Positions 1,263 through 36,575 of a stretch of DNA of 36,575 nucleotides are shown piece after piece. How positions within the stretch are numbered: position 1 is the first letter of the stretch; each line of letters starts with the position of its first letter. Below the pieces are notes generated by a model. It was not told the DNA's origin. It ran no database searches and saw nothing but the letters and a program-made list of their open reading frames with translations. The DNA lies in the sequence record MZ375294.1; one strand, written 5' to 3'. Origin of the DNA: Escherichia phage T7. Position numbers and translations under genes: made by a program.

Positions 1263-1306
1263 TGTCTACTACCAACGTGCAATACGGTCTGACCGCTATC
1301 TCATAA
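1262..1306 (+). pseudogene. Gene 0.4 remnant: first 12 codons fused to sequence just upstream of gene 0.7 (genes 0.4-0.6 deleted)
   Basis: ATG overlaps ocr stop (TAATG); [17 protein letters not shown] stops after 14 aa; 0.7 RBS follows directly. Confidence 0.7.
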
Positions 1307-2478: not shown

Positions 2479-5130
2479 ATGAACACGATTAACATCGCTA
2501 AGAACGACTTCTCTGACATCGAACTGGCTGCTATCCCGTTCAACACTCTGGCTGACCATTACGGTGAGCGTTTAGCTCGCGAACAGTTGGCCCTTGAGCA
2601 TGAGTCTTACGAGATGGGTGAAGCACGCTTCCGCAAGATGTTTGAGCGTCAACTTAAAGCTGGTGAGGTTGCGGATAACGCTGCCGCCAAGCCTCTCATC
2701 ACTACCCTACTCCCTAAGATGATTGCACGCATCAACGACTGGTTTGAGGAAGTGAAAGCTAAGTGCGGCAAGCGCCCGACAGCCTTCCAGTTCCTGCAAG
2801 AAATCAAGCCGGAAGCCGTAGCGTACATCACCATTAAGACCACTCTGGCTTGCCTAACCAGTGCTGACAATACAACCGTTCAGGCTGCAGCAAGCGCAAT
2901 CGGTCGGGCCATTGAGGACGAGGCTCGCTTCGGTCGTATCCGTGACCTTGAAGCTAAGCACTTCAAGAAAAACGTTGAGGAACAACTCAACAAGCGCGTA
3001 GGGCACGTCTACAAGAAAGCATTTATGCGAGTTGTCGAGGCTGACATGCTCTCTAAGGGTCTACTCGGTGGCGAGGCGTGGTCTTCGTGGCATAAGGAAG
3101 ACTCTATTCATGTAGGAGTACGCTGCATCGAGATGCTCATTGAGTCAACCGGAATGGTTAGCTTACACCGCCAAAATGCTGGCGTAGTAGGTCAAGACTC
3201 TGAGACTATCGGACTCGCACCTGAATACGCTGAGGCTATCGCAACCCGTGCAGGTGCGCTGGCTGGCATCTCTCCGATGTTCCAACCTTGCGTAGTTCCT
3301 CCTAAGCCGTGGACTGGCATTACTGGTGGTGGCTATTGGGCTAACGGTCGTCGTCCTCTGGCGCTGGTGCGTACTCACAGTAAGAAAGCACTGATGCGCT
3401 ACGAAGACGTTTACATGCCTGAGGTGTACAAAGCGATTAACATTGCGCAAAACACCGCATGGAAAATCAACAAGAAAGTCCTAGCGGTCGCCAACGTAAT
3501 CACCAAGTGGAAGCATTGTCCGGTCGAGGACATCCCTGCGATTGAGCGTGAAGAACTCCCGATGAAACCGGAAGACATCGACATGAATCCTGAGGCTCTC
3601 ACCGCGTGGAAACGTGCTGCCGCTGCTGTGTACCGCAAGGACAAGGCTCGCAAGTCTCGCCGTATCAGCCTTGAGTTCATGCTTGAGCAAGCCAATAAGT
3701 TTGCTAACCATAAGGCCATCTGGTTCCCTTACAACATGGACTGGCGCGGTCGTGTTTACGCTGTGTCAATGTTCAACCCGCAAGGTAACGATATGACCAA
3801 AGGACTGCTTACGCTGGCGAAAGGTAAACCAATCGGTAAGGAAGGTTACTACTGGCTGAAAATCCACGGTGCAAACTGTGCGGGTGTCGATAAGGTTCCG
3901 TTCCCTGAGCGCATCAAGTTCATTGAGGAAAACCACGAGAACATCATGGCTTGCGCTAAGTCTCCACTGGAGAACACTTGGTGGGCTGAGCAAGATTCTC
4001 CGTTCTGCTTCCTTGCGTTCTGCTTTGAGTACGCTGGGGTACAGCACCACGGCCTGAGCTATAACTGCTCCCTTCCGCTGGCGTTTGACGGGTCTTGCTC
4101 TGGCATCCAGCACTTCTCCGCGATGCTCCGAGATGAGGTAGGTGGTCGCGCGGTTAACTTGCTTCCTAGTGAAACCGTTCAGGACATCTACGGGATTGTT
4201 GCTAAGAAAGTCAACGAGATTCTACAAGCAGACGCAATCAATGGGACCGATAACGAAGTAGTTACCGTGACCGATGAGAACACTGGTGAAATCTCTGAGA
4301 AAGTCAAGCTGGGCACTAAGGCACTGGCTGGTCAATGGCTGGCTTACGGTGTTACTCGCAGTGTGACTAAGCGTTCAGTCATGACGCTGGCTTACGGGTC
4401 CAAAGAGTTCGGCTTCCGTCAACAAGTGCTGGAAGATACCATTCAGCCAGCTATTGATTCCGGCAAGGGTCTGATGTTCACTCAGCCGAATCAGGCTGCT
4501 GGATACATGGCTAAGCTGATTTGGGAATCTGTGAGCGTGACGGTGGTAGCTGCGGTTGAAGCAATGAACTGGCTTAAGTCTGCTGCTAAGCTGCTGGCTG
4601 CTGAGGTCAAAGATAAGAAGACTGGAGAGATTCTTCGCAAGCGTTGCGCTGTGCATTGGGTAACTCCTGATGGTTTCCCTGTGTGGCAGGAATACAAGAA
4701 GCCTATTCAGACGCGCTTGAACCTGATGTTCCTCGGTCAGTTCCGCTTACAGCCTACCATTAACACCAACAAAGATAGCGAGATTGATGCACACAAACAG
4801 GAGTCTGGTATCGCTCCTAACTTTGTACACAGCCAAGACGGTAGCCACCTTCGTAAGACTGTAGTGTGGGCACACGAGAAGTACGGAATCGAATCTTTTG
4901 CACTGATTCACGACTCCTTCGGTACCATTCCGGCTGACGCTGCGAACCTGTTCAAAGCAGTGCGCGAAACTATGGTTGACACATATGAGTCTTGTGATGT
5001 ACTGGCTGATTTCTACGACCAGTTCGCTGACCAGTTGCACGAGTCTCAATTGGACAAAATGTCAGCACTTCCGGCTAAAGGTAACTTGAACCTCCGTGAC
5101 ATCTTAGAGTCGGACTTCGCGTTCGCGTAA
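2479..5130 (+). CDS. 1: T7 RNA polymerase (gene 1), single-subunit DNA-directed RNA polymerase
   Basis: 883-aa ORF starting MNTINIAKNDFSDIELAAIPF and ending ILESDFAFA. Confidence 0.98.
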   Translation: MNTINIAKNDFSDIELAAIPFNTLADHYGERLAREQLALEHESYEMGEARFRKMFERQLKAGEVADNAAAKPLITTLLPKMIARINDWFEEVKAKCGKRPTAFQFLQEIKPEAVAYITIKTTLACLTSADNTTVQAAASAIGRAIEDEARFGRIRDLEAKHFKKNVEEQLNKRVGHVYKKAFMRVVEADMLSKGLLGGEAWSSWHKEDSIHVGVRCIEMLIESTGMVSLHRQNAGVVGQDSETIGLAPEYAEAIATRAGALAGISPMFQPCVVPPKPWTGITGGGYWANGRRPLALVRTHSKKALMRYEDVYMPEVYKAINIAQNTAWKINKKVLAVANVITKWKHCPVEDIPAIEREELPMKPEDIDMNPEALTAWKRAAAAVYRKDKARKSRRISLEFMLEQANKFANHKAIWFPYNMDWRGRVYAVSMFNPQGNDMTKGLLTLAKGKPIGKEGYYWLKIHGANCAGVDKVPFPERIKFIEENHENIMACAKSPLENTWWAEQDSPFCFLAFCFEYAGVQHHGLSYNCSLPLAFDGSCSGIQHFSAMLRDEVGGRAVNLLPSETVQDIYGIVAKKVNEILQADAINGTDNEVVTVTDENTGEISEKVKLGTKALAGQWLAYGVTRSVTKRSVMTLAYGSKEFGFRQQVLEDTIQPAIDSGKGLMFTQPNQAAGYMAKLIWESVSVTVVAAVEAMNWLKSAAKLLAAEVKDKKTGEILRKRCAVHWVTPDGFPVWQEYKKPIQTRLNLMFLGQFRLQPTINTNKDSEIDAHKQESGIAPNFVHSQDGSHLRKTVVWAHEKYGIESFALIHDSFGTIPADAANLFKAVRETMVDTYESCDVLADFYDQFADQLHESQLDKMSALPAKGNLNLRDILESDFAFA

Positions 5131-5138
5131 CGCCAAAT

Positions 5139-5161
5139 TAATACGACTCACTATAGAGGGA
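5139..5161 (+). promoter_or_regulatory. T7 RNAP promoter phi1.1A
   Basis: taatacgactcactatagaggga. Confidence 0.9.
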
Positions 5162-5163
5162 CA

Positions 5164-5203
5164 AACTCAAGGTCATTCGCAAGAGTGGCCTTTATGATTG
5201 ACC
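5164..5203 (+). promoter_or_regulatory. RNase III processing hairpin R1.1
   Basis: actcaaggtcattcgcaagagtggcctttatgattgacc. Confidence 0.6.
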
Positions 5204-5213
5204 TTCTTCCGGT

Positions 5214-5236
5214 TAATACGACTCACTATAGGAGAA
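5214..5236 (+). promoter_or_regulatory. T7 RNAP promoter phi1.1B
   Basis: taatacgactcactataggagaa. Confidence 0.9.
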
Positions 5237-5314
5237 CCTTAAGGTTTAACTTTAAGACCCTTAAGTGTTAATTAGAGATTTAAATTAAAGAATTATTAAG
5301 AGAGGACTTTAAGT
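5237..5314 (+). other. AT-rich segment of the primary origin of DNA replication (downstream of phi1.1A/phi1.1B)
   Basis: ccttaaggtttaactttaagacccttaagtgttaattagagatttaaattaaagaattattaagag; strongly AT-rich immediately after the paired promoters. Confidence 0.7.
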
Positions 5315-5443
5315 ATGCGTAACTTCGAAAAGATGACCAAACGTTCTAACCGTAATGCTCGTGACTTCGAGGCAACCAAAGGTCGCAAGTTGAATAAGAC
5401 TAAGCGTGACCGCTCTCACAAGCGTAGCTGGGAGGGTCAGTAA
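5315..5443 (+). CDS. 1.1: Gene 1.1 small basic protein, function unknown
   Basis: 42-aa ORF MRNFEKMTKRSNRNARDFEATKGRKLNKTKRDRSHKRSWEGQ. Confidence 0.8.
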   Translation: MRNFEKMTKRSNRNARDFEATKGRKLNKTKRDRSHKRSWEGQ

Positions 5444-5444
5444 G

Positions 5445-5702
5445 ATGGGACGTTTATATAGTGGTAATCTGGCAGCATTCAAGGCAGCAACAAACAAGCT
5501 GTTCCAGTTAGACTTAGCGGTCATTTATGATGACTGGTATGATGCCTATACAAGAAAAGATTGCATACGGTTACGTATTGAGGACAGGAGTGGAAACCTG
5601 ATTGATACTAGCACCTTCTACCACCACGACGAGGACGTTCTGTTCAATATGTGTACTGATTGGTTGAACCATATGTATGACCAGTTGAAGGACTGGAAGT
5701 AA
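5445..5702 (+). CDS. 1.2: Gene 1.2 inhibitor of host dGTP triphosphohydrolase
   Basis: 85-aa ORF MGRLYSGNLAAFKAATNKLF...; the track ORF 5406-5702 is an upstream extension of the same frame. Confidence 0.85.
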   Translation: MGRLYSGNLAAFKAATNKLFQLDLAVIYDDWYDAYTRKDCIRLRIEDRSGNLIDTSTFYHHDEDVLFNMCTDWLNHMYDQLKDWK

Positions 5703-5722
5703 TACGACTCAGTATAGGGACA
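5700..5722 (+). promoter_or_regulatory. T7 RNAP promoter phi1.3
   Basis: taatacgactcagtatagggaca. Confidence 0.85.
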
Positions 5723-5724
5723 AT

Positions 5725-5760
5725 GCTTAAGGTCGCTCTCTAGGAGTGGCCTTAGTCATT
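5725..5760 (+). promoter_or_regulatory. RNase III processing hairpin R1.3
   Basis: gcttaaggtcgctctctaggagtggccttagtcatt. Confidence 0.55.
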
Positions 5761-5782: not shown

Positions 5783-6862
5783 ATGATGAACATTAAGACT
5801 AACCCGTTTAAAGCCGTGTCTTTCGTAGAGTCTGCCATTAAGAAGGCTCTGGATAACGCTGGATATCTTATCGCTGAAATCAAGTACGATGGTGTACGCG
5901 GGAACATCTGCGTAGACAATACTGCTAACAGTTACTGGCTCTCTCGTGTATCTAAAACGATTCCGGCACTGGAGCACTTAAACGGGTTTGATGTTCGCTG
6001 GAAGCGTCTACTGAACGATGACCGTTGCTTCTACAAAGATGGCTTTATGCTTGATGGGGAACTCATGGTCAAGGGCGTAGACTTTAACACAGGGTCCGGC
6101 CTACTGCGTACCAAATGGACTGACACGAAGAACCAAGAGTTCCATGAAGAGTTATTCGTTGAACCAATCCGTAAGAAAGATAAAGTTCCCTTTAAGCTGC
6201 ACACTGGACACCTTCACATAAAACTGTACGCTATCCTCCCGCTGCACATCGTGGAGTCTGGAGAAGACTGTGATGTCATGACGTTGCTCATGCAGGAACA
6301 CGTTAAGAACATGCTGCCTCTGCTACAGGAATACTTCCCTGAAATCGAATGGCAAGCGGCTGAATCTTACGAGGTCTACGATATGGTAGAACTACAGCAA
6401 CTGTACGAGCAGAAGCGAGCAGAAGGCCATGAGGGTCTCATTGTGAAAGACCCGATGTGTATCTATAAGCGCGGTAAGAAATCTGGCTGGTGGAAAATGA
6501 AACCTGAGAACGAAGCTGACGGTATCATTCAGGGTCTGGTATGGGGTACAAAAGGTCTGGCTAATGAAGGTAAAGTGATTGGTTTTGAGGTGCTTCTTGA
6601 GAGTGGTCGTTTAGTTAACGCCACGAATATCTCTCGCGCCTTAATGGATGAGTTCACTGAGACAGTAAAAGAGGCCACCCTAAGTCAATGGGGATTCTTT
6701 AGCCCATACGGTATTGGCGACAACGATGCTTGTACTATTAACCCTTACGATGGCTGGGCGTGTCAAATTAGCTACATGGAGGAAACACCTGATGGCTCTT
6801 TGCGGCACCCATCGTTCGTAATGTTCCGTGGCACCGAGGACAACCCTCAAGAGAAAATGTAA
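5783..6862 (+). CDS. 1.3: ATP-dependent DNA ligase (gene 1.3)
   Basis: 359-aa ORF; adenylation motif EIKYDGVR with active-site Lys. Confidence 0.95.
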   Translation: MMNIKTNPFKAVSFVESAIKKALDNAGYLIAEIKYDGVRGNICVDNTANSYWLSRVSKTIPALEHLNGFDVRWKRLLNDDRCFYKDGFMLDGELMVKGVDFNTGSGLLRTKWTDTKNQEFHEELFVEPIRKKDKVPFKLHTGHLHIKLYAILPLHIVESGEDCDVMTLLMQEHVKNMLPLLQEYFPEIEWQAAESYEVYDMVELQQLYEQKRAEGHEGLIVKDPMCIYKRGKKSGWWKMKPENEADGIIQGLVWGTKGLANEGKVIGFEVLLESGRLVNATNISRALMDEFTETVKEATLSQWGFFSPYGIGDNDACTINPYDGWACQISYMEETPDGSLRHPSFVMFRGTEDNPQEKM

Positions 6863-6867
6863 TCACA

Positions 6868-6900
6868 CTGGCTCACCTTCGGGTGGGCCTTTCTGCGTTT
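6868..6900 (+). terminator. TE, intrinsic terminator for host RNA polymerase early transcription
   Basis: GC-rich hairpin ggctcaccttcgggtgggcc followed by tttctgcgttt. Confidence 0.8.
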
Positions 6901-6912
6901 ATAAGGAGACAC

Positions 6913-6935
6913 TTTTACGACTCACTAAAGGAGGT
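6913..6935 (+). promoter_or_regulatory. T7 RNAP promoter phi1.5, upstream edge altered (TTT instead of TAA at -17 to -15)
   Basis: tttTACGACTCACTAAAGGAGGT; positions -14 to +6 are promoter-like, -17 to -15 replaced by the deletion junction. Confidence 0.65.
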
Positions 6936-6942
6936 ACACACC

Positions 6943-7032
6943 ATGATGTACTTAATGCCATTACTCATCGTCATTGTAGGATGCCTTGCGCTCCACTGTA
7001 GCGATGATGATATGCCAGATGGTCACGCTTAA
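6943..7032 (+). CDS. 1.5: Gene 1.5 small protein, function unknown
   Basis: 29-aa ORF MMYLMPLLIVIVGCLALHCSDDDMPDGHA with RBS AGGAGGT. Confidence 0.7.
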   Translation: MMYLMPLLIVIVGCLALHCSDDDMPDGHA

Positions 7033-7052
7033 TACGACTCACTAAAGGAGAC
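7030..7052 (+). promoter_or_regulatory. T7 RNAP promoter phi1.6
   Basis: taatacgactcactaaaggagac. Confidence 0.88.
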
Positions 7053-7057
7053 ACTAT

Positions 7058-7318
7058 ATGTTTCGACTTCATTACAACAAAAGCGTTAAGAATTTCACGG
7101 TTCGCCGTGCTGACCGTTCAATCGTATGTGCGAGCGAGCGCCGAGCTAAGATACCTCTTATTGGTAACACAGTTCCTTTGGCACCGAGCGTCCACATCAT
7201 TATCACCCGTGGTGACTTTGAGAAAGCAATAGACAAGAAACGTCCGGTTCTTAGTGTGGCAGTGACCCGCTTCCCGTTCGTCCGTCTGTTACTCAAACGA
7301 ATCAAGGAGGTGTTCTGA
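7058..7318 (+). CDS. 1.6: Gene 1.6 protein, function unknown
   Basis: 86-aa [18 protein letters not shown]... Confidence 0.8.
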
Positions 7319-7353
7319 TGGGACTGTTAGATGGTGAAGCCTGGGAAACATAA
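7318..7353 (+). pseudogene. Gene 1.7 remnant (most of the gene deleted)
   Basis: ATG overlaps 1.6 stop (TGATGG); [14 protein letters not shown] stops after 11 aa, followed directly by the gene 1.8 start region. Confidence 0.7.
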
Positions 7354-7364
7354 GGATAAATGTT

Positions 7365-7705
<341 letters not shown>

Positions 7706-7708
<3 letters not shown>

Positions 7709-7728
7709 TACGACTCACTATTAGGGAA
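7706..7728 (+). promoter_or_regulatory. T7 RNAP promoter phi2.5 (initiates with A)
   Basis: taatacgactcactattagggaa. Confidence 0.88.
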
Positions 7729-7773
7729 GACTCCCTCTGAGAAACCAAACGAAACCTAAAGGAGATTAACATT

Positions 7774-8352
7774 ATGGCTAAGAAGATTTTCACCTCTGCG
7801 CTGGGTACCGCTGAACCTTACGCTTACATCGCCAAGCCGGACTACGGCAACGAAGAGCGTGGCTTTGGGAACCCTCGTGGTGTCTATAAAGTTGACCTGA
7901 CTATTCCCAACAAAGACCCGCGCTGCCAGCGTATGGTCGATGAAATCGTGAAGTGTCACGAAGAGGCTTATGCTGCTGCCGTTGAGGAATACGAAGCTAA
8001 TCCACCTGCTGTAGCTCGTGGTAAGAAACCGCTGAAACCGTATGAGGGTGACATGCCGTTCTTCGATAACGGTGACGGTACGACTACCTTTAAGTTCAAA
8101 TGCTACGCGTCTTTCCAAGACAAGAAGACCAAAGAGACCAAGCACATCAATCTGGTTGTGGTTGACTCAAAAGGTAAGAAGATGGAAGACGTTCCGATTA
8201 TCGGTGGTGGCTCTAAGCTGAAAGTTAAATATTCTCTGGTTCCATACAAGTGGAACACTGCTGTAGGTGCGAGCGTTAAGCTGCAACTGGAATCCGTGAT
8301 GCTGGTCGAACTGGCTACCTTTGGTGGCGGTGAAGACGATTGGGCTGACTAA
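7774..8352 (+). CDS. 2.5: Single-stranded DNA-binding protein gp2.5, truncated by premature TAA (192 aa; acidic C-terminal tail codons remain in frame downstream to 8472)
   Basis: ORF MAKKIFTSALGTAEPYAYIAKPDYGNEERGF...GGEDDWAD then TAA at 8350-8352; same frame continues VEENGYVASGSAKASKPRDEESWDEDDEESEEADEDGDF to TAA at 8470-8472. Confidence 0.9.
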   Translation: MAKKIFTSALGTAEPYAYIAKPDYGNEERGFGNPRGVYKVDLTIPNKDPRCQRMVDEIVKCHEEAYAAAVEEYEANPPAVARGKKPLKPYEGDMPFFDNGDGTTTFKFKCYASFQDKKTKETKHINLVVVDSKGKKMEDVPIIGGGSKLKVKYSLVPYKWNTAVGASVKLQLESVMLVELATFGGGEDDWAD

Positions 8353-8472
8353 GTTGAAGAGAACGGCTATGTTGCCTCTGGTTCTGCCAAAGCGAGCAAA
8401 CCACGCGACGAAGAAAGCTGGGACGAAGACGACGAAGAGTCCGAGGAAGCAGACGAAGACGGAGACTTCTAA

Positions 8473-8892
8473 GTGGAACTGCGGGAGAAAATCCTTGAGC
8501 GAATCAAGGTGACTTCCTCTGGGTGTTGGGAGTGGCAGGGCGCTACGAACAATAAAGGGTACGGGCAGGTGTGGTGCAGCAATACCGGAAAGGTTGTCTA
8601 CTGTCATCGCGTAATGTCTAATGCTCCGAAAGGTTCTACCGTCCTGCACTCCTGTGATAATCCATTATGTTGTAACCCTGCACACCGTTCCATAGGAACT
8701 CCAAAAGAGAACTCCACTGACATGGTAAATAAGGGTCGCTCACACAAGGGGTATAAACTTTCAGACGAAGACGTAATGGCAATCATGGAGTCCAGCGAGT
8801 CCAATGTATCCTTAGCTCGCACCTATGGTGTCTCCCAACAGACTATTTGTGATATACGCAAAGGGAGGCGACATGGCAGGTTACGGCGCTAA
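8473..8892 (+). CDS. 2.8: Gene 2.8 HNH-endonuclease-like protein (GTG start)
   Basis: 139-aa ORF with HNH-like motif HSCDNPLCCNPAH and Cys/His pairs. Confidence 0.75.
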   Translation: MELREKILERIKVTSSGCWEWQGATNNKGYGQVWCSNTGKVVYCHRVMSNAPKGSTVLHSCDNPLCCNPAHRSIGTPKENSTDMVNKGRSHKGYKLSDEDVMAIMESSESNVSLARTYGVSQQTICDIRKGRRHGRLRR

Positions 8893-9777: not shown

Positions 9778-11647
<1,870 letters not shown>

Positions 11648-11670: not shown

Positions 11671-11709
11671 ACACCAAATTCTTTGAGTAATCAAACAGGA
11701 GAAACCATT

Positions 11710-12070: not shown

Positions 12071-14185
12071 ATGATCGTTTCTGACATCGAAGATAACGCC
12101 CTCTTAGAGAGCGTCACTAAGTTCCACTGCGGGGTTATCTACGACTACTCCACCGCTGAGTACGTAAGCTACCGTCCGAGTGACTTCGGTGCGTATCTGG
12201 ATGCGCTGGAAGCCGAGGTTGCACGAGGCGGTCTTATTGTGTTCCACAACGGTCACAAGTATGACGTTCCTGCATTGACCAAACTGGCAAAGTTGCAATT
12301 GAACCGAGAGTTCCACCTTCCTCGTGAGAACTGTATTGACACCCTTGTGTTGTCACGTTTGATTCATTCCAACCTCAAGGACACCGATATGGGTCTTCTG
12401 CGTTCCGGCAAGTTGCCCGGAAAACGCTTTGGGTCTCACGCTTTGGAGGCGTGGGGTTATCGCTTAGGCGAGATGAAGGGTGAATACAAAGACGACTTTA
12501 AGCGTATGCTTGAAGAGCAGGGTGAAGAATACGTTGACGGAATGGAGTGGTGGAACTTCAACGAAGAGATGATGGACTATAACGTTCAGGACGTTGTGGT
12601 AACTAAAGCTCTCCTTGAGAAGCTACTCTCTGACAAACATTACTTCCCTCCTGAGATTGACTTTACGGACGTAGGATACACTACGTTCTGGTCAGAATCC
12701 CTTGAGGCCGTTGACATTGAACATCGTGCTGCATGGCTGCTCGCTAAACAAGAGCGCAACGGGTTCCCGTTTGACACAAAAGCAATCGAAGAGTTGTACG
12801 TAGAGTTAGCTGCTCGCCGCTCTGAGTTGCTCCGTAAATTGACCGAAACGTTCGGCTCGTGGTATCAGCCTAAAGGTGGCACTGAGATGTTCTGCCATCC
12901 GCGAACAGGTAAGCCACTACCTAAATACCCTCGCATTAAGACACCTAAAGTTGGTGGTATCTTTAAGAAGCCTAAGAACAAGGCACAGCGAGAAGGCCGT
13001 GAGCCTTGCGAACTTGATACCCGCGAGTACGTTGCTGGTGCTCCTTACACCCCAGTTGAACATGTTGTGTTTAACCCTTCGTCTCGTGACCACATTCAGA
13101 AGAAACTCCAAGAGGCTGGGTGGGTCCCGACCAAGTACACCGATAAGGGTGCTCCTGTGGTGGACGATGAGGTACTCGAAGGAGTACGTGTAGATGACCC
13201 TGAGAAGCAAGCCGCTATCGACCTCATTAAAGAGTACTTGATGATTCAGAAGCGAATCGGACAGTCTGCTGAGGGAGACACAGCATGGCTTCGTTATGTT
13301 GCTGAGGATGGTAAGATTCATGGTTCTGTTAACCCTAATGGAGCAGTTACGGGTCGTGCGACCCATGCGTTCCCAAACCTTGCGCAAATTCCGGGTGTAC
13401 GTTCTCCTTATGGAGAGCAGTGTCGCGCTGCTTTTGGCGCTGAGCACCATTTGGATGGGATAACTGGTAAGCCTTGGGTTCAGGCTGGCATCGACGCATC
13501 CGGTCTTGAGCTACGCTGCTTGGCTCACTTCATGGCTCGCTTTGATAACGGCGAGTACGCTCACGAGATTCTTAACGGCGACATCCACACTAAGAACCAG
13601 ATAGCTGCTGAACTACCTACCCGAGATAACGCTAAGACGTTCATCTATGGGTTCCTCTATGGTGCTGGTGATGAGAAGATTGGACAGATTGTTGGTGCTG
13701 GTAAAGAGCGCGGTAAGGAACTCAAGAAGAAATTCCTTGAGAACACCCCCGCGATTGCAGCACTCCGCGAGTCTATCCAACAGACACTTGTCGAGTCCTC
13801 TCAATGGGTAGCTGGTGAGCAACAAGTCAAGTGGAAACGCCGCTGGATTAAAGGTCTGGATGGTCGTAAGGTACACGTTCGTAGTCCTCACGCTGCCTTG
13901 AATACCCTACTGCAATCTGCTGGTGCTCTCATCTGCAAACTGTGGATTATCAAGACCGAAGAGATGCTCGTAGAGAAAGGCTTGAAGCATGGCTGGGATG
14001 GGGACTTTGCGTACATGGCATGGGTACATGATGAAATCCAAGTAGGCTGCCGTACCGAAGAGATTGCTCAGGTGGTCATTGAGACCGCACAAGAAGCGAT
14101 GCGCTGGGTTGGAGACCACTGGAACTTCCGGTGTCTTCTGGATACCGAAGGTAAGATGGGTCCTAATTGGGCGATTTGCCACTGA
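12071..14185 (+). CDS. 5: T7 DNA polymerase (gene 5), family A polymerase with 3'-5' exonuclease
   Basis: 704-aa [29 protein letters not shown]...; family A polymerase-type palm residues near the C-terminus. Confidence 0.97.
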
Positions 14186-14230
14186 TACAGGAGGCTACTC
14201 CAAAGGCATAAAACTATAGGAGAAATTATT

Positions 14231-14530
14231 ATGGCTATGACAAAGAAATTTAAAGTGTCCTTCGACGTTACCGCAAAGATGTCGTCTGACGTTCAGGCAA
14301 TCTTAGAGAAAGATATGCTGCATCTATGTAAGCAGGTCGGCTCAGGTGCGATTGTCCCCAATGGTAAACAGAAGGAAATGATTGTCCAGTTCCTGACACA
14401 CGGTATGGAAGGATTGATGACATTCGTAGTACGTACATCATTTCGTGAGGCCATTAAGGACATGCACGAAGAGTATGCAGATAAGGACTCTTTCAAACAA
14501 TCTCCTGCAACAGTACGGGAGGTGTTCTGA
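14231..14530 (+). CDS. 5.5: Gene 5.5 protein (H-NS-binding)
   Basis: 99-aa ORF MAMTKKFKVSFDVTAKMSSDVQAILEKDMLH... Confidence 0.85.
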   Translation: MAMTKKFKVSFDVTAKMSSDVQAILEKDMLHLCKQVGSGAIVPNGKQKEMIVQFLTHGMEGLMTFVVRTSFREAIKDMHEEYADKDSFKQSPATVREVF

Positions 14531-16243: not shown

Positions 16244-16510
16244 ATGTGTTTCTCACCGAAAATTAAAACTCCGAAGATGGATACCAATCAGATTCGAGCC
16301 GTTGAGCCAGCGCCTCTGACCCAAGAAGTGTCAAGCGTGGAGTTCGGTGGGTCTTCTGATGAGACGGATACCGAGGGCACCGAAGTGTCTGGACGCAAAG
16401 GCCTCAAGGTCGAACGTGATGATTCCGTAGCGAAGTCTAAAGCCAGCGGCAATGGCTCCGCTCGTATGAAATCTTCCATCCGTAAGTCCGCATTTGGAGG
16501 TAAGAAGTGA
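16244..16510 (+). CDS. 6.7: Gene 6.7 virion protein
   Basis: 88-aa ORF MCFSPKIKTPKMDTNQIRAVEPAPLTQEVSS... Confidence 0.8.
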   Translation: MCFSPKIKTPKMDTNQIRAVEPAPLTQEVSSVEFGGSSDETDTEGTEVSGRKGLKVERDDSVAKSKASGNGSARMKSSIRKSAFGGKK

Positions 16511-16911
16511 TGTCTGAGTTCACATGTGTGGAGGCTAAGAGTCGCTTCCGTGCAATCCGGTGGACTGTGGAACACCTTGGGTTGCCTAAAGGATTCGAAG
16601 GACACTTTGTGGGCTACAGCCTCTACGTAGACGAAGTGATGGACATGTCTGGTTGCCGTGAAGAGTACATTCTGGACTCTACCGGAAAACATGTAGCGTA
16701 CTTCGCGTGGTGCGTAAGCTGTGACATTCACCACAAAGGAGACATTCTGGATGTAACGTCCGTTGTCATTAATCCTGAGACAGACTCTAAGGGCTTACAG
16801 CGATTCCTAGCGAAACGCTTTAAGTACCTTGCGGAACTCCACGATTGCGATTGGGTGTCTCGTTGTAAGCATGAAGGCGAGACAATGCGTGTATACTTTA
16901 AGGAGGTATAA
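16510..16911 (+). CDS. 7: Gene 7 virion/host-range protein
   Basis: 133-aa ORF MSEFTCVEAKSRFRAIRWTVEHLGLPKGFEGHF... Confidence 0.8.
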   Translation: MSEFTCVEAKSRFRAIRWTVEHLGLPKGFEGHFVGYSLYVDEVMDMSGCREEYILDSTGKHVAYFAWCVSCDIHHKGDILDVTSVVINPETDSKGLQRFLAKRFKYLAELHDCDWVSRCKHEGETMRVYFKEV

Positions 16912-18960: not shown

Positions 18961-19884
18961 ATGGCTGAATCTAATGCAGACGTATATGCATCTTTTGGCG
19001 TGAACTCCGCTGTGATGTCTGGTGGTTCCGTTGAGGAACATGAGCAGAACATGCTGGCTCTTGATGTTGCTGCCCGTGATGGCGATGATGCAATCGAGTT
19101 AGCGTCAGACGAAGTGGAAACAGAACGTGACCTGTATGACAACTCTGACCCGTTCGGTCAAGAGGATGACGAAGGCCGCATTCAGGTTCGTATCGGTGAT
19201 GGCTCTGAGCCGACCGATGTGGACACTGGAGAAGAAGGCGTTGAGGGCACCGAAGGTTCCGAAGAGTTTACCCCACTGGGCGAGACTCCAGAAGAACTGG
19301 TAGCTGCCTCTGAGCAACTTGGTGAGCACGAAGAGGGCTTCCAAGAGATGATTAACATTGCTGCTGAGCGTGGCATGAGTGTCGAGACCATTGAGGCTAT
19401 CCAGCGTGAGTACGAGGAGAACGAAGAGTTGTCCGCCGAGTCCTACGCTAAGCTGGCTGAAATTGGCTACACGAAGGCTTTCATTGACTCGTATATCCGT
19501 GGTCAAGAAGCTCTGGTGGAGCAGTACGTAAACAGTGTCATTGAGTACGCTGGTGGTCGTGAACGTTTTGATGCACTGTATAACCGCCTTGAGACGCACA
19601 ACCCTGAGGCTGCACAGTCGCTGGATAATGCGTTGACCAATCGTGACTTAGCGACCGTTAAGGCTATCATCAACTTGGCTGGTGAGTCTCGCGCTAAGGC
19701 GTTCGGTCGTAAGCCAACTCGTAGTGTGACTAATCGTGCTATTCCGGCTAAACCTCAGGCTACCAAGCGTGAAGGCTTTGCGGACCGTAGCGAGATGATT
19801 AAAGCTATGAGTGACCCTCGGTATCGCACAGATGCCAACTATCGTCGTCAAGTCGAACAGAAAGTAATCGATTCGAACTTCTGA
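18961..19884 (+). CDS. 9: Capsid assembly (scaffolding) protein gp9
   Basis: 307-aa acidic ORF MAESNADVYASFGVNSAVMSGGSVEEHEQNMLALDV... Confidence 0.95.
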   Translation: MAESNADVYASFGVNSAVMSGGSVEEHEQNMLALDVAARDGDDAIELASDEVETERDLYDNSDPFGQEDDEGRIQVRIGDGSEPTDVDTGEEGVEGTEGSEEFTPLGETPEELVAASEQLGEHEEGFQEMINIAAERGMSVETIEAIQREYEENEELSAESYAKLAEIGYTKAFIDSYIRGQEALVEQYVNSVIEYAGGRERFDALYNRLETHNPEAAQSLDNALTNRDLATVKAIINLAGESRAKAFGRKPTRSVTNRAIPAKPQATKREGFADRSEMIKAMSDPRYRTDANYRRQVEQKVIDSNF

Positions 19885-19897
19885 TAGACTTCGAAAT

Positions 19898-19920
19898 TAA
19901 TACGACTCACTATATGGAGA
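19898..19920 (+). promoter_or_regulatory. T7 RNAP promoter phi10 with T instead of G at +1
   Basis: taatacgactcacTATATGGAGA; followed by the s10 leader and RBS aagaaggagatatacatATG. Confidence 0.85.
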
Positions 19921-19977
19921 CCACAACGGTTTCCCTCTAGAAATAATTTTGTTTAACTTTAAGAAGGAGATATACAT

Positions 19978-21015
19978 ATGGCTAGCATGACTGGTGGACA
20001 GCAAATGGGTACTAACCAAGGTAAAGGTGTAGTTGCTGCTGGAGATAAACTGGCGTTGTTCTTGAAGGTATTTGGCGGTGAAGTCCTGACTGCGTTCGCT
20101 CGTACCTCCGTGACCACTTCTCGCCACATGGTACGTTCCATCTCCAGCGGTAAATCCGCTCAGTTCCCTGTTCTGGGTCGCACTCAGGCAGCGTATCTGG
20201 CTCCGGGCGAGAACCTCGACGATAAACGTAAGGACATCAAACACACCGAGAAGGTAATCACCATTGACGGTCTCCTGACGGCTGACGTTCTGATTTATGA
20301 TATTGAGGACGCGATGAACCACTACGACGTTCGCTCTGAGTATACCTCTCAGTTGGGTGAATCTCTGGCGATGGCTGCGGATGGTGCGGTTCTGGCTGAG
20401 ATTGCCGGTCTGTGTAACGTGGAAAGCAAATATAATGAGAACATCGAGGGCTTAGGTACTGCTACCGTAATTGAGACCACTCAGAACAAGGCCGCACTTA
20501 CCGACCAAGTTGCGCTGGGTAAGGAGATTATTGCGGCTCTGACTAAGGCTCGTGCGGCTCTGACCAAGAACTATGTTCCGGCTGCTGACCGTGTGTTCTA
20601 CTGTGACCCAGATAGCTACTCTGCGATTCTGGCAGCACTGATGCCGAACGCAGCAAACTACGCTGCTCTGATTGACCCTGAGAAGGGTTCTATCCGCAAC
20701 GTTATGGGCTTTGAGGTTGTAGAAGTTCCGCACCTCACCGCTGGTGGTGCTGGTACCGCTCGTGAGGGCACTACTGGTCAGAAGCACGTCTTCCCTGCCA
20801 ATAAAGGTGAGGGTAATGTCAAGGTTGCTAAGGACAACGTTATCGGCCTGTTCATGCACCGCTCTGCGGTAGGTACTGTTAAGCTGCGTGACTTGGCTCT
20901 GGAGCGCGCTCGCCGTGCTACCTTCCAAGCGGACCAGATTATCGCTAAGTACGCAATGGGCCACGGTGGTCTTCGCCCAGAAGCTGCTGGTGCAGTGGTT
21001 TTCAAAGTGGAGTAA
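19978..21015 (+). CDS. 10A: Major capsid protein gp10A
   Basis: 345-aa ORF MASMTGGQQMGTNQGKGVVAAGDKLALF... ending VVFKVE. Confidence 0.97.
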   Translation: MASMTGGQQMGTNQGKGVVAAGDKLALFLKVFGGEVLTAFARTSVTTSRHMVRSISSGKSAQFPVLGRTQAAYLAPGENLDDKRKDIKHTEKVITIDGLLTADVLIYDIEDAMNHYDVRSEYTSQLGESLAMAADGAVLAEIAGLCNVESKYNENIEGLGTATVIETTQNKAALTDQVALGKEIIAALTKARAALTKNYVPAADRVFYCDPDSYSAILAALMPNAANYAALIDPEKGSIRNVMGFEVVEVPHLTAGGAGTAREGTTGQKHVFPANKGEGNVKVAKDNVIGLFMHRSAVGTVKLRDLALERARRATFQADQIIAKYAMGHGGLRPEAAGAVVFKVE

Positions 21016-36310: not shown

Positions 36311-36395
36311 ATGGAGTTCCTATAGTGACCTCTAAGAATGGTGATTATATTGTATTAGTATCACCTTAACTTAAGGGCCTATGGAGTTCCTATAG
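36311..36395 (+). repeat. Two 15-bp direct repeats atggagttcctatag (36311-36325 and 36381-36395) flanking the right-end deletion junction
   Basis: Exact 15-bp copies 70 bp apart between phiOR and the right terminal repeat. Confidence 0.8.
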
Positions 36396-36432: not shown

Positions 36433-36575
36433 TCTCACAGTGTACGGACCTAAAGTTCCCCCCATAGGGTGTACCTAAAGCCCAGCCAATCACCTAAAGT
36501 CAACCTTCGGTTGACCTTGAGGGTTCCCTAAGGGTTTGTCTTTGGGTGTTACCTTGAGTGTCTCTCTGTGTCCCT
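36433..36575 (+). repeat. Right direct terminal repeat
   Basis: Exact copy of bases 1-143. Confidence 0.95.

What the first reader, a model, noticed from the sequence alone, without database searches (positions are those of the whole stretch)
6906..6942. Gene 1.4 excision truncates the upstream edge of promoter phi1.5
After the ligase terminator TE the sequence reads gagacacttt|tacgactcactaaaggaggt. The -14 to +6 part of a T7 promoter is intact, but -17 to -15 is TTT rather than TAA, apparently because the stop codon of the removed ORF supplied those bases. The far-upstream AT-rich positions contribute to promoter binding, so phi1.5 may be weakened. Genes 1.5 and 1.6 can still be reached by read-through from upstream promoters and from phi1.6.
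Basis: partly seen in the sequence, partly recalled or inferred. Interest (0 to 1): 0.45.

Follow-up and report, generated by a model that had tools for sequence, protein, structure and literature searches.

The report
Engineered gene deletion clips T7 promoter
A designed, scarless removal of the small T7 gene 1.4 in a published laboratory genome-reduced phage also removed the gene's stop codon, which doubled as the first three bases of the next T7 promoter; two A-to-T changes result, and they probably weaken that redundant promoter only mildly.

Summary
The window is a complete 36,575-bp phage T7 genome from the CiPGr genome-reduction experiment (Yuan et al. 2022, NAR). Compared with NC_001604 it lacks reference bases 7608-7763, which is exactly gene 1.4 from ATG to TAA, with no microhomology at the junction (window 6915|6916). 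The TAA stop codon was positions -17 to -15 of promoter phi1.5, and these now read TTT. Only -16 and -15 actually change (A to T); -17 stays T by chance, and -14 to +6 is intact.

The same junction occurs in 63 database records, all CiPGr T7 mutants from transfer 30 onward, and in no natural viral contig. Published in-vitro data on the consensus promoter (Komura 2018) give about 68% of wild-type activity for each single A-to-T change, against 4-15% for G or C. The region stays A/T-only, so mild weakening is expected, roughly 2-fold and perhaps up to 7-fold.

phi1.6, phi1.1A/B and phi1.3 are still present. Phage T3 naturally has TE followed directly by phi1.5 with no gene 1.4. This is an ordinary side-effect of a designed deletion and of low interest. 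Other features of the same genome may matter more: RNA polymerase R96C in the loop that reads this region, and point mutations in phi10, phi9 and phiOL.

The parts
5783..6862 (+). Gene 1.3 (DNA ligase), intact, immediately upstream
   Evidence: ORF of 359 aa. Corresponds to reference 6475-7554.
6870..6900 (+). Early terminator TE for E. coli RNA polymerase: hairpin GGCTCACC-TTCG-GGTGGGCC (6870-6889) followed by TTTCTGCGTTT
   Evidence: Identical to reference 7562-7592. TE is annotated at reference 7588, which is window 6896. The simple terminator scan did not flag it because the T-run is interrupted.
6903..6908 (+). Orphaned Shine-Dalgarno (AAGGAG) of the deleted gene 1.4. No start codon follows it any more.
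   Evidence: Sequence. The reference has ATG of gene 1.4 at 7608, immediately after ...aaggagacacttt.
6915..6916 (.). Deletion junction. Reference 7608-7763 (gene 1.4, ATG through TAA, 156 bp) is missing between these two bases.
   Evidence: 0 nt microhomology. The junction is found in 63 CiPGr T7 records.
6913..6935 (+). Promoter phi1.5, -17 to +6: TTTTACGACTCACTAAAGGAGGT. The start site (+1) is at 6930. Positions -16 (6914) and -15 (6915) are T instead of A.
   Evidence: One search gives the promoter table for reference and window. One search gives the alignment.
6943..7032 (+). Gene 1.5 (29 aa), intact, served by phi1.5 and by read-through
   Evidence: Corresponds to reference 7791-7880. 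The frame is seen.
7030..7052 (+). Promoter phi1.6 (TAATACGACTCACTAAAGGAGAC), unchanged, +1 at 7047
   Evidence: identical to the reference.
7058..7318 (+). Gene 1.6, intact
   Evidence: 86 aa. Corresponds to reference 7906-8166.
5139..5739 (+). Upstream class II promoters whose transcripts can read through into genes 1.5 and 1.6: phi1.1A (+1 at 5156, with -17 C>T), phi1.1B (+1 at 5231) and phi1.3 (+1 at 5717)
2764..2766 (+). Codon 96 of T7 RNA polymerase, CGT>TGT (R96C). It lies in the AT-rich recognition loop (residues 93-101), which contacts promoter positions -17 to -13.
   Evidence: Present in 7 late-transfer records. The role of the loop is taken from PMC8874028.

Best explanation
The window is a laboratory T7 genome from the CRISPR/Cas9 iterative genome-reduction experiment (CiPGr).

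Origin of the change. A 'cassette-gene' repair template with two 50-bp arms flanking the gene 1.4 ORF deleted the ORF from its ATG to its TAA. In wild-type T7 that TAA is also positions -17 to -15 of the class II promoter phi1.5. The last three bases of the gene 1.4 ribosome-binding-site spacer (TTT) now occupy those positions.

Expected effect (inferred). The net change is two A.T to T.A transversions, at -16 and -15. Everything from -14 to +6 is untouched, including the specificity region (-12 to -5), the unwinding region and the start site. T7 RNA polymerase reads -17 to -13 through the minor groove with its AT-rich recognition loop, a readout that distinguishes A/T from G/C far better than A from T. 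So phi1.5 should still fire at reduced strength: about half of wild type if the two effects multiply, possibly several-fold less.

Expected phenotype (inferred). The cost should be small:
- Gene 1.6 and later genes also have phi1.6.
- Gene 1.5 and all downstream genes receive read-through transcripts from phi1.1A, phi1.1B and phi1.3.
- Genes 1.4 and 1.5 are non-essential.

Shown: the deletion, its exact ends, its origin in the CiPGr lineage, and the retained promoter core. Inferred: the size of the promoter effect and its phenotypic irrelevance.
For: Exact ORF-to-ORF deletion with no microhomology.

The window's other zero-microhomology deletions also start or end on ORF boundaries:
- gene 4.7, reference 13927-14334, exact ORF;
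- gene 5.3, from its start at 16483;
- gene 7.7, from its start at 19848.

The junction is in 63 records, all MZ375237 onward or OL9647xx. It is absent from T7_10L and the other early clones.

The core promoter is identical to the reference.

Komura et al. 2018, S2 File (RNA reads per DNA read):
- wild type: 169 +/- 19;
- -16: A>T 114.5, A>G 26.0 and 21.8, A>C 17.3 and 9.1;
- -15: A>T 115.7, A>C 7.2, A>G 6.8 and 6.0.

T at -16 occurs naturally in T7 phi4.7 (CTATTCG...). T at -15 is present in the one T3 promoter read here, phi1.5 (CATTAACCC...).

Sibling clones such as T7_270S are viable after a further 117-bp collapse of phi1.5 onto phi1.6. That leaves the TTT-headed promoter as the only T7 promoter between TE and gene 1.6.

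T3 naturally has TE followed 16 nt later by phi1.5, with no gene 1.4 and a non-consensus -17.
Against: - No activity measurement exists for this exact promoter. The -16T/-15T double mutant is absent from the held part of the Komura table.
- The one informative multi-mutant (TTT plus -6G and +2A) gave 2.93. The product of the single effects of -6G and +2A predicts about 21. This hints at a roughly 7-fold TTT effect rather than 2-fold. It rests on one barcode, and the matched -6G/+2A double was not measured.
- A at -15 is invariant in all 17 T7 promoters.
- TTT followed by the T7 core was found in 0 natural viral contigs, against 116 stretches with TAA.
- The published data used the class III consensus and wild-type polymerase in vitro. 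phi1.5 is a weaker class II promoter, and this genome's polymerase carries R96C in the loop that reads these positions, so the numbers may not transfer.
Confidence: 0.7

Rival explanations
1. The clipped phi1.5 is effectively dead. Losing the native -16/-15 contacts on an already weak class II promoter drops binding below a useful level, and genes 1.5 and 1.6 now rely wholly on read-through and on phi1.6.
For: - A at -15 is invariant in all 17 T7 promoters.
- No natural contig carries TTT before the T7 core.
- A TTT-containing quadruple mutant was about 7-fold below the multiplicative expectation.
- Weak promoters often show steeper-than-additive losses (inference).
Against: - Each single A>T keeps about 68% of activity, while G or C substitutions at the same positions drop it to 4-15%. 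The readout is therefore A/T versus G/C, and TTT preserves it.
- The -17A/-16T double mutant ATATACG... still gave 83.7, about 50% of wild type.
- Clones with the TTT promoter as the sole promoter directly ahead of gene 1.6 are viable.
Confidence: 0.1
2. The change is functionally silent. TTT and TAA at -17..-15 give indistinguishable phi1.5 activity in vivo.
For: - Minor-groove readout barely distinguishes A.T from T.A (established principle).
- The 68% values each come from a single barcode, in an assay whose wild-type replicates range from 142 to 188.
- The junction was fixed by transfer 30 and was never reverted or modified in 63 records.
Against: - Both single substitutions fall below all five wild-type replicates.
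- The conservation of TAA in natural promoters (211 of 226 core matches in the fetched contigs) argues that some selection maintains it.
Confidence: 0.17
3. The deletion arose spontaneously, as a CRISPR-escape or illegitimate-recombination event, rather than from the designed repair template.
For: The same genome carries undesigned deletions with 3-4 nt microhomology: the 0.4-0.6 region, gene 1.7 and the gene 19.5 region. The paper reports such events.
Against: This junction has 0 nt of microhomology, and its ends are the first base of the ATG and the last base of the TAA. Hitting both by chance is of the order of one in tens of thousands for a locus of this size. This matches the stated design.
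Confidence: 0.03

Closest known systems
Wild-type T7 class II promoter phi1.5 (NC_001604, +1 at 7778)
   Same: Identical from -14 to +6, and identical downstream (gene 1.5 RBS, gene 1.5, phi1.6).
   Different: - -16 and -15 are T instead of A.
- The flank at -22..-18 is GACAC instead of ACTGG.
- TE now ends about 30 bp upstream of the start site instead of about 190 bp.
Phage T3 arrangement: ligase, TE, phi1.5, gene 1.5 (NC_003298)
   Same: - No gene 1.4.
- The early terminator is followed within 16 nt by phi1.5.
- The T3 phi1.5 also deviates from its family consensus at the upstream edge: CATTAACCC... versus the T3 consensus AATTAACCC, the consensus being recalled from memory.

The engineered T7 has converged on this layout.
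   Different: - T3 promoters have a different specificity core (AACCCTCAC) and are read by T3 RNA polymerase.
- The T3 arrangement is natural.
- T3 has no phi1.6 annotated before gene 1.6.
T7 phi4.7 (CTATTCGACTCACTATAGGAGAT) and other naturally off-consensus T7 promoters (phi1.1A and phi4c with CAA)
   Same: They are functional T7 promoters with non-TAA bases at -17..-15. phi4.7 has T at -16.
   Different: None has T at -15. All 17 keep A there.
T7.1 refactored genome (Chan, Kosuri & Endy 2005; DQ100054)
   Same: It is also an engineered T7 in which the gene 1.4 / phi1.5 overlap had to be dealt with.
   Different: T7.1 duplicated the 3' end of gene 1.4 (gttaactggtaa), so that both the stop codon and a complete phi1.5 were kept. 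The CiPGr deletion removed the shared bases.
Synthetic T7 promoter variants from saturation and double-mutant libraries (Komura 2018; 2026 'T7 Promoter Calculator' preprint)
   Same: The single -16T and -15T variants have been measured. All 2-bp variants of -17..+6, which include -16T/-15T, were built in the 2026 library.
   Different: These are in the class III consensus background, in vitro, with wild-type polymerase. The value for the double mutant is not in the texts held.

Membership tests
T7 RNA polymerase promoter (class II, phi1.5) | Specificity and binding core at -12 to -5 (CGACTCAC), with G at -11 and CTC at -9..-7 | tested here: met
   Window 6918-6925 is CGACTCAC, identical to the reference.
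T7 RNA polymerase promoter (class II, phi1.5) | A/T-rich unwinding region at -4..-1 and G at +1 | tested here: met
   TAAA then GGAGGT, identical to reference phi1.5.
T7 RNA polymerase promoter (class II, phi1.5) | A/T-only bases at -17..-13 for the AT-rich recognition loop | tested here: met
   TTTTA (window 6913-6917). There is no G or C, which are the substitutions that cost 85-96% of activity in vitro.
T7 RNA polymerase promoter (class II, phi1.5) | Consensus TAA at -17..-15 | tested here: not met
   TTT in the window, against TAA in the reference and in 13 of 17 T7 promoters. A at -15 is invariant in all 17.
T7 RNA polymerase promoter (class II, phi1.5) | Transcription actually initiates at the predicted +1 | not testable with these tools
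   Needs 5'-end mapping or in-vitro transcription.
CiPGr 'cassette-gene' designed deletion (Yuan et al. 2022) | The deleted interval equals a whole annotated ORF, joined without scar or microhomology | tested here: met
   Reference 7608-7763 is the gene 1.4 CDS, with 0 nt microhomology.
CiPGr 'cassette-gene' designed deletion (Yuan et al. 2022) | The junction is shared by clones of that experiment and absent elsewhere | tested here: met
   63 records, all MZ3752xx or OL9647xx. Absent from T7_10L. 0 hits in IMG/VR for the clipped promoter.
CiPGr 'cassette-gene' designed deletion (Yuan et al. 2022) | A synthesized cassette whose arms are reference 7558-7607 and 7764-7813 | not tested
   The supplementary tables with cassette sequences are not held.

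The most novel reading that the evidence does not exclude
The clipped phi1.5 may be one sign of polymerase-promoter co-evolution in the CiPGr lineage.

Late clones, including this window, carry R96C in the polymerase's AT-rich recognition loop, the element that reads -17..-13. The lineage has also accumulated promoter point mutations:
- phiOL +1 A>G, fixed from transfer 30;
- phi10 +1 G>T, in 33 records;
- phi9 -11 G>A and phi1.1A -17 C>T, private to this window.

R96C might relax or retune upstream-edge recognition, changing the relative strengths of all 17 promoters, the TTT-headed one among them.
Probability: 0.08. Interest if true: 0.45.

Novelty: already known. Interest (0 to 1): 0.12.

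Why it matters
The practical lesson is a small one for genome design. In compact phage genomes, ORF-exact 'scarless' deletions can clip overlapping regulatory elements. The authors say they avoided regulatory elements, yet the 3-bp overlap between the gene 1.4 stop codon and phi1.5 slipped through.

By luck the replacement bases are A/T, which published data suggest is tolerated. A G/C-ending spacer would probably have cost about 10-fold or more.

It also matters for interpreting the low fitness of the smallest CiPGr T7 genomes. Regulatory lesions and point mutations accompany the gene losses, but this particular lesion is unlikely to be a major contributor. It opens no new biological question.

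Tried and rejected
- **Imburgio et al. 2000**, the classic single-substitution series of T7 promoters, is not in the paper library. Its numbers are not used.
- **The exact -16T/-15T double mutant** is absent from the held part of Komura's S2 table, as are the matched backgrounds for two TTT-containing multi-mutants. Only an indirect estimate was possible.
- **The 2026 T7 Promoter Calculator preprint** built all double mutants, but its supplementary data are not held.
- **Supplementary tables of Yuan et al. 2022** (cassette sequences, clone list, accession table) are not held. The cassette for gene 1.4 and the clone name of the window could not be confirmed.
- **Identity of the window.**
  - No record in the phage collection is identical to it. 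Its phi9 -11A variant is found in none.
  - Its length matches the paper's '8.4% reduced' figure for T7_300L, though not the printed 36,937 bp.
  - It lacks the gp17 N158D change reported for the T12 descendant.
- **The consensus terminator scan** did not flag TE. I rely instead on identity to the annotated reference TE.
- **New elements at the junction.** I considered whether the junction creates a new sigma-70 promoter, a new ORF or a shifted promoter register, and rejected this. No promoter-like site was found. There is no start codon after the orphan Shine-Dalgarno sequence. The only new ORF listing is an upstream GTG extension of the gene 1.5 frame.
- **My quick flank-based SNP typing** is unreliable next to repeated promoter sequences. 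The phi9 and phi10 states were re-checked by database search.

Full report
**What the window is.**
- Megablast of the region, and of the first 25 kb, finds phage T7 at 99.9-100% identity. The best matches are 'Mutant Escherichia phage T7 clone T7_270L / T7_300S ...' records MZ3752xx.
- A whole-window comparison with the T7 reference NC_001604 shows colinear blocks interrupted by nine deletions, plus 47 substitutions in the ungapped blocks compared.
- The window is 36,575 bp, 8.4% shorter than the 39,937-bp reference. That matches the paper's figure for its smallest T7 genome, T7_300L, although the paper prints 36,937 bp.
- No record in the phage collection is identical to the window, so the clone name is an inference.

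**The observation.**
- Window 6906-6935 reads gagacactttTACGACTCACTAAAGGAGGT.
- Window 6915 corresponds to reference 7607 and window 6916 to reference 7764. The missing interval is reference 7608-7763, which is exactly the annotated gene 1.4 CDS from the A of ATG to the last A of TAA.
- There is no microhomology, and no alternative placement of the deletion is possible.
- The phi1.5 start site (reference 7778) maps to window 6930, so -17..+6 is window 6913-6935.
- The reference has TAATACGACTCACTAAAGGAGGT and the window has TTTTACGACTCACTAAAGGAGGT.

**Origin.**
- The paper describes 200-nt cassettes carrying a spacer and two 50-bp homology arms. [quoted passage not shown] The authors state they avoided 'likely regulatory elements'.
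- The window's other zero-microhomology deletions follow the same logic:
  - Gene 4.7 is removed exactly (reference 13927-14334).
  - Genes 5.3 and 7.7 are removed from their start codons but keep their last 19-24 nt, which carry the next gene's ribosome-binding site.
- In contrast, the deletions in the 0.4-0.6 region, gene 1.7 and the gene 19.5 region have 3-4 nt microhomologies. The paper's list of undesigned 'large fragment' deletions includes gp0.3-0.6 and gp19.5.
- The gene 1.4 junction occurs as a single uninterrupted match in 63 records, all MZ375237 onward or OL9647xx. It is absent from the transfer-10 clone and other early clones, and present from T7_30L on.
- It is thus a designed edit that was fixed early and inherited.
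- The pattern TTTTACGACTCACTAWAG is absent from the IMG/VR viral contigs. The TAA version occurs in 116 stretches.

**What it probably does to phi1.5.**
- T7 RNA polymerase contacts -17 to -13 with its AT-rich recognition loop, residues 93-101 (summarised in PMC8874028).
- The best accessible data are Komura et al. 2018 (PMC5937735, S2 File), which report RNA reads per DNA read for barcoded variants of the consensus promoter in vitro:

| Position | Base | Activity |
|---|---|---|
| wild type | TAA | 169 +/- 19 (five barcodes, 142-188) |
| -16 | A>T | 114.5 |
| -16 | A>G | 26.0, 21.8 |
| -16 | A>C | 17.3, 9.1 |
| -15 | A>T | 115.7 |
| -15 | A>C | 7.2 |
| -15 | A>G | 6.8, 6.0 |
| -2 | T>A (class II-like) | 161, 138 |

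- These positions clearly matter, but the polymerase discriminates A/T from G/C and hardly A from T. That is what a minor-groove readout predicts.
- The deletion happened to bring in T.A pairs. Multiplying the two single effects gives about 46% of the wild-type level.
- The exact double mutant is not in the held table.
- One quadruple mutant, TTT plus -6G and +2A, gave 2.93. The product of the -6G (about 47.7) and +2A (about 74.3) single effects predicts about 21. The TTT effect could therefore be as large as about 7-fold. This rests on one barcode and an unmeasured background.
- The -17A/-16T double mutant retains about 50% (83.7).
- Natural variation points the same way:
  - phi4.7 has T at -16.
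  - phi1.1A and phi4c have C at -17.
  - A at -15 is invariant in all 17 T7 promoters.
  - T3's phi1.5 carries T at -15.

**Why the phenotypic effect should be small.**
- phi1.6, 117 bp downstream, is unchanged. phi1.1A, phi1.1B and phi1.3 upstream are present.
- Class II transcripts made by T7 RNA polymerase run through TE, which is a terminator for the host enzyme (established knowledge, Dunn & Studier 1983).
- phi1.6 lies downstream of gene 1.5, so it backs up gene 1.6 but not gene 1.5.
- Three sibling records (MZ375283, T7_270S = MZ375286 and MZ375290) match the junction query only up to +3 of phi1.5. In the one inspected, T7_270S, a further 117-bp collapse between the near-identical phi1.5 and phi1.6 sequences has deleted gene 1.5. 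It leaves a single TTT-headed promoter in front of gene 1.6. Those phages were isolated as viable plaques.
- Phage T3 naturally lacks gene 1.4. Its TE is followed 16 nt later by its phi1.5, whose -17 is also off-consensus. The engineered T7 layout therefore mimics a natural one.
- The T7.1 refactoring project recognised the overlap between the gene 1.4 stop codon and phi1.5. It duplicated the 3' end of gene 1.4 to keep both elements whole.

**A caveat specific to this genome.** The polymerase itself is mutated.
- Gene 1 carries R96C, V137A, Q184R, E245G and P862S.
- R96 lies in the AT-rich recognition loop. In molecular-dynamics work it makes a salt bridge near non-template -16. R96L plus K98R are among the changes that shift T7 polymerase towards T3 promoters in directed evolution.
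- R96C is absent at transfers 10, 30 and 270L, and present in T7_300S, the window and six other late records. It arose long after the gene 1.4 deletion.
- Nothing here links the two events causally. It does mean that promoter-strength numbers obtained with wild-type polymerase may not transfer exactly.

**Verdict.**
- It is an unintended but trivial by-product of a published, designed deletion.
- The functional consequence is most likely a mild weakening of a redundant, weak promoter.
- It is neither surprising to a specialist nor a route to an open question.

Noticed in passing
window 2764 (codon 96 of gene 1); also 2888, 3029, 3212, 5062: T7 RNA polymerase carries five missense changes: R96C, V137A, Q184R, E245G and P862S. 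R96C lies in the AT-rich recognition loop that reads promoter positions -17..-13. It appears only in late-transfer clones (7 records plus the window). V137A matches the T3 residue at that position.
   Followed up: partly
window 19915 (phi10 +1): The start-site base of the major capsid promoter phi10 is G>T (TATAGGGAGA becomes TATATGGAGA). The variant is shared by 33 CiPGr records. In Komura's in-vitro data +1 G>T gives about 8% of wild-type activity (13.8 versus 169). It could contribute to the low burst size reported for the smallest T7 mutant.
   Followed up: partly
window 18865 (phi9 -11): phi9 has G>A at -11, a key specificity position. No record in the phage collection shares this, so it is private to this genome. 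phiOL naturally has A at -11.
   Followed up: partly
window 388 (phiOL +1) and 5139 (phi1.1A -17): Two promoter changes move towards the consensus. phiOL +1 A>G gives GGGAGA and is fixed from transfer 30 onward. phi1.1A -17 C>T gives TAATACG and was not seen in the four sibling clones compared.
   Followed up: partly
window 8350 (gene 2.5 codon 193): GAG>TAG truncates the single-stranded DNA-binding protein gp2.5 at residue 192 of 232, removing its acidic C-terminal tail. That tail is regarded as essential for interaction with T7 DNA polymerase and helicase (own knowledge). The change is shared with T7_270L and T7_300S, whose annotated CDS is correspondingly short. Gene 5 carries A8D and K404T in the same genomes, which might be suppressors.
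   Followed up: no
window 1294-1297, 7345-7348, 9869|9870, 11674-11676, 12052|12053, 14200|14201, 17227|17228, 36374-36376: There are eight further deletions relative to NC_001604:
- about 1310-1985 (genes 0.4 to 0.6);
- about 8193-8728 (gene 1.7);
- 11254-11545 (gene 3.8);
- about 13350-13547 (gene 4.3);
- 13927-14334 (gene 4.7, exact ORF);
- 16483-16820 (gene 5.3);
- 19848-20216 (gene 7.7);
- about 39363-39718 (gene 19.5 region).

The deletions in 3.8, 4.7, 5.3 and 7.7 have 0 nt of microhomology. Those in 4.7, 5.3 and 7.7 begin or end on ORF boundaries, which looks designed. The other four have 3-4 nt microhomology, and those in 0.4-0.6, 1.7 and 19.5 look like CRISPR-escape events.
   Followed up: yes
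MZ375286 (L132), MZ375283, MZ375290: These sibling clones match the junction query only up to +3 of phi1.5. In T7_270S (MZ375286), the one inspected, a 117-bp collapse between the near-identical phi1.5 and phi1.6 sequences has removed gene 1.5. It leaves one hybrid promoter (TTT head, phi1.6 tail) in front of gene 1.6.
   Followed up: yes
window 93|94 (left terminal repeat), and the matching right-end repeat near 36525: An 18-bp deletion (reference 93-110) and several substitutions lie in the terminal repeat. They are shared with T7_300S. The right-end copy shows the same shortened form in the BLAST blocks.
   Followed up: no
L122-L131 (IMG/VR contigs of 4-52 kb): Ten contigs carry ...CCTG TTATACGACTCACTAWAG A(C/T)TC(A/T)A, that is a T7-core-like motif with T at -16. 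At least two of these contigs (24 and 52 kb) differ in length from T7-like genomes. Whether this is a promoter of another phage group or a conserved coding stretch was not examined.
   Followed up: no
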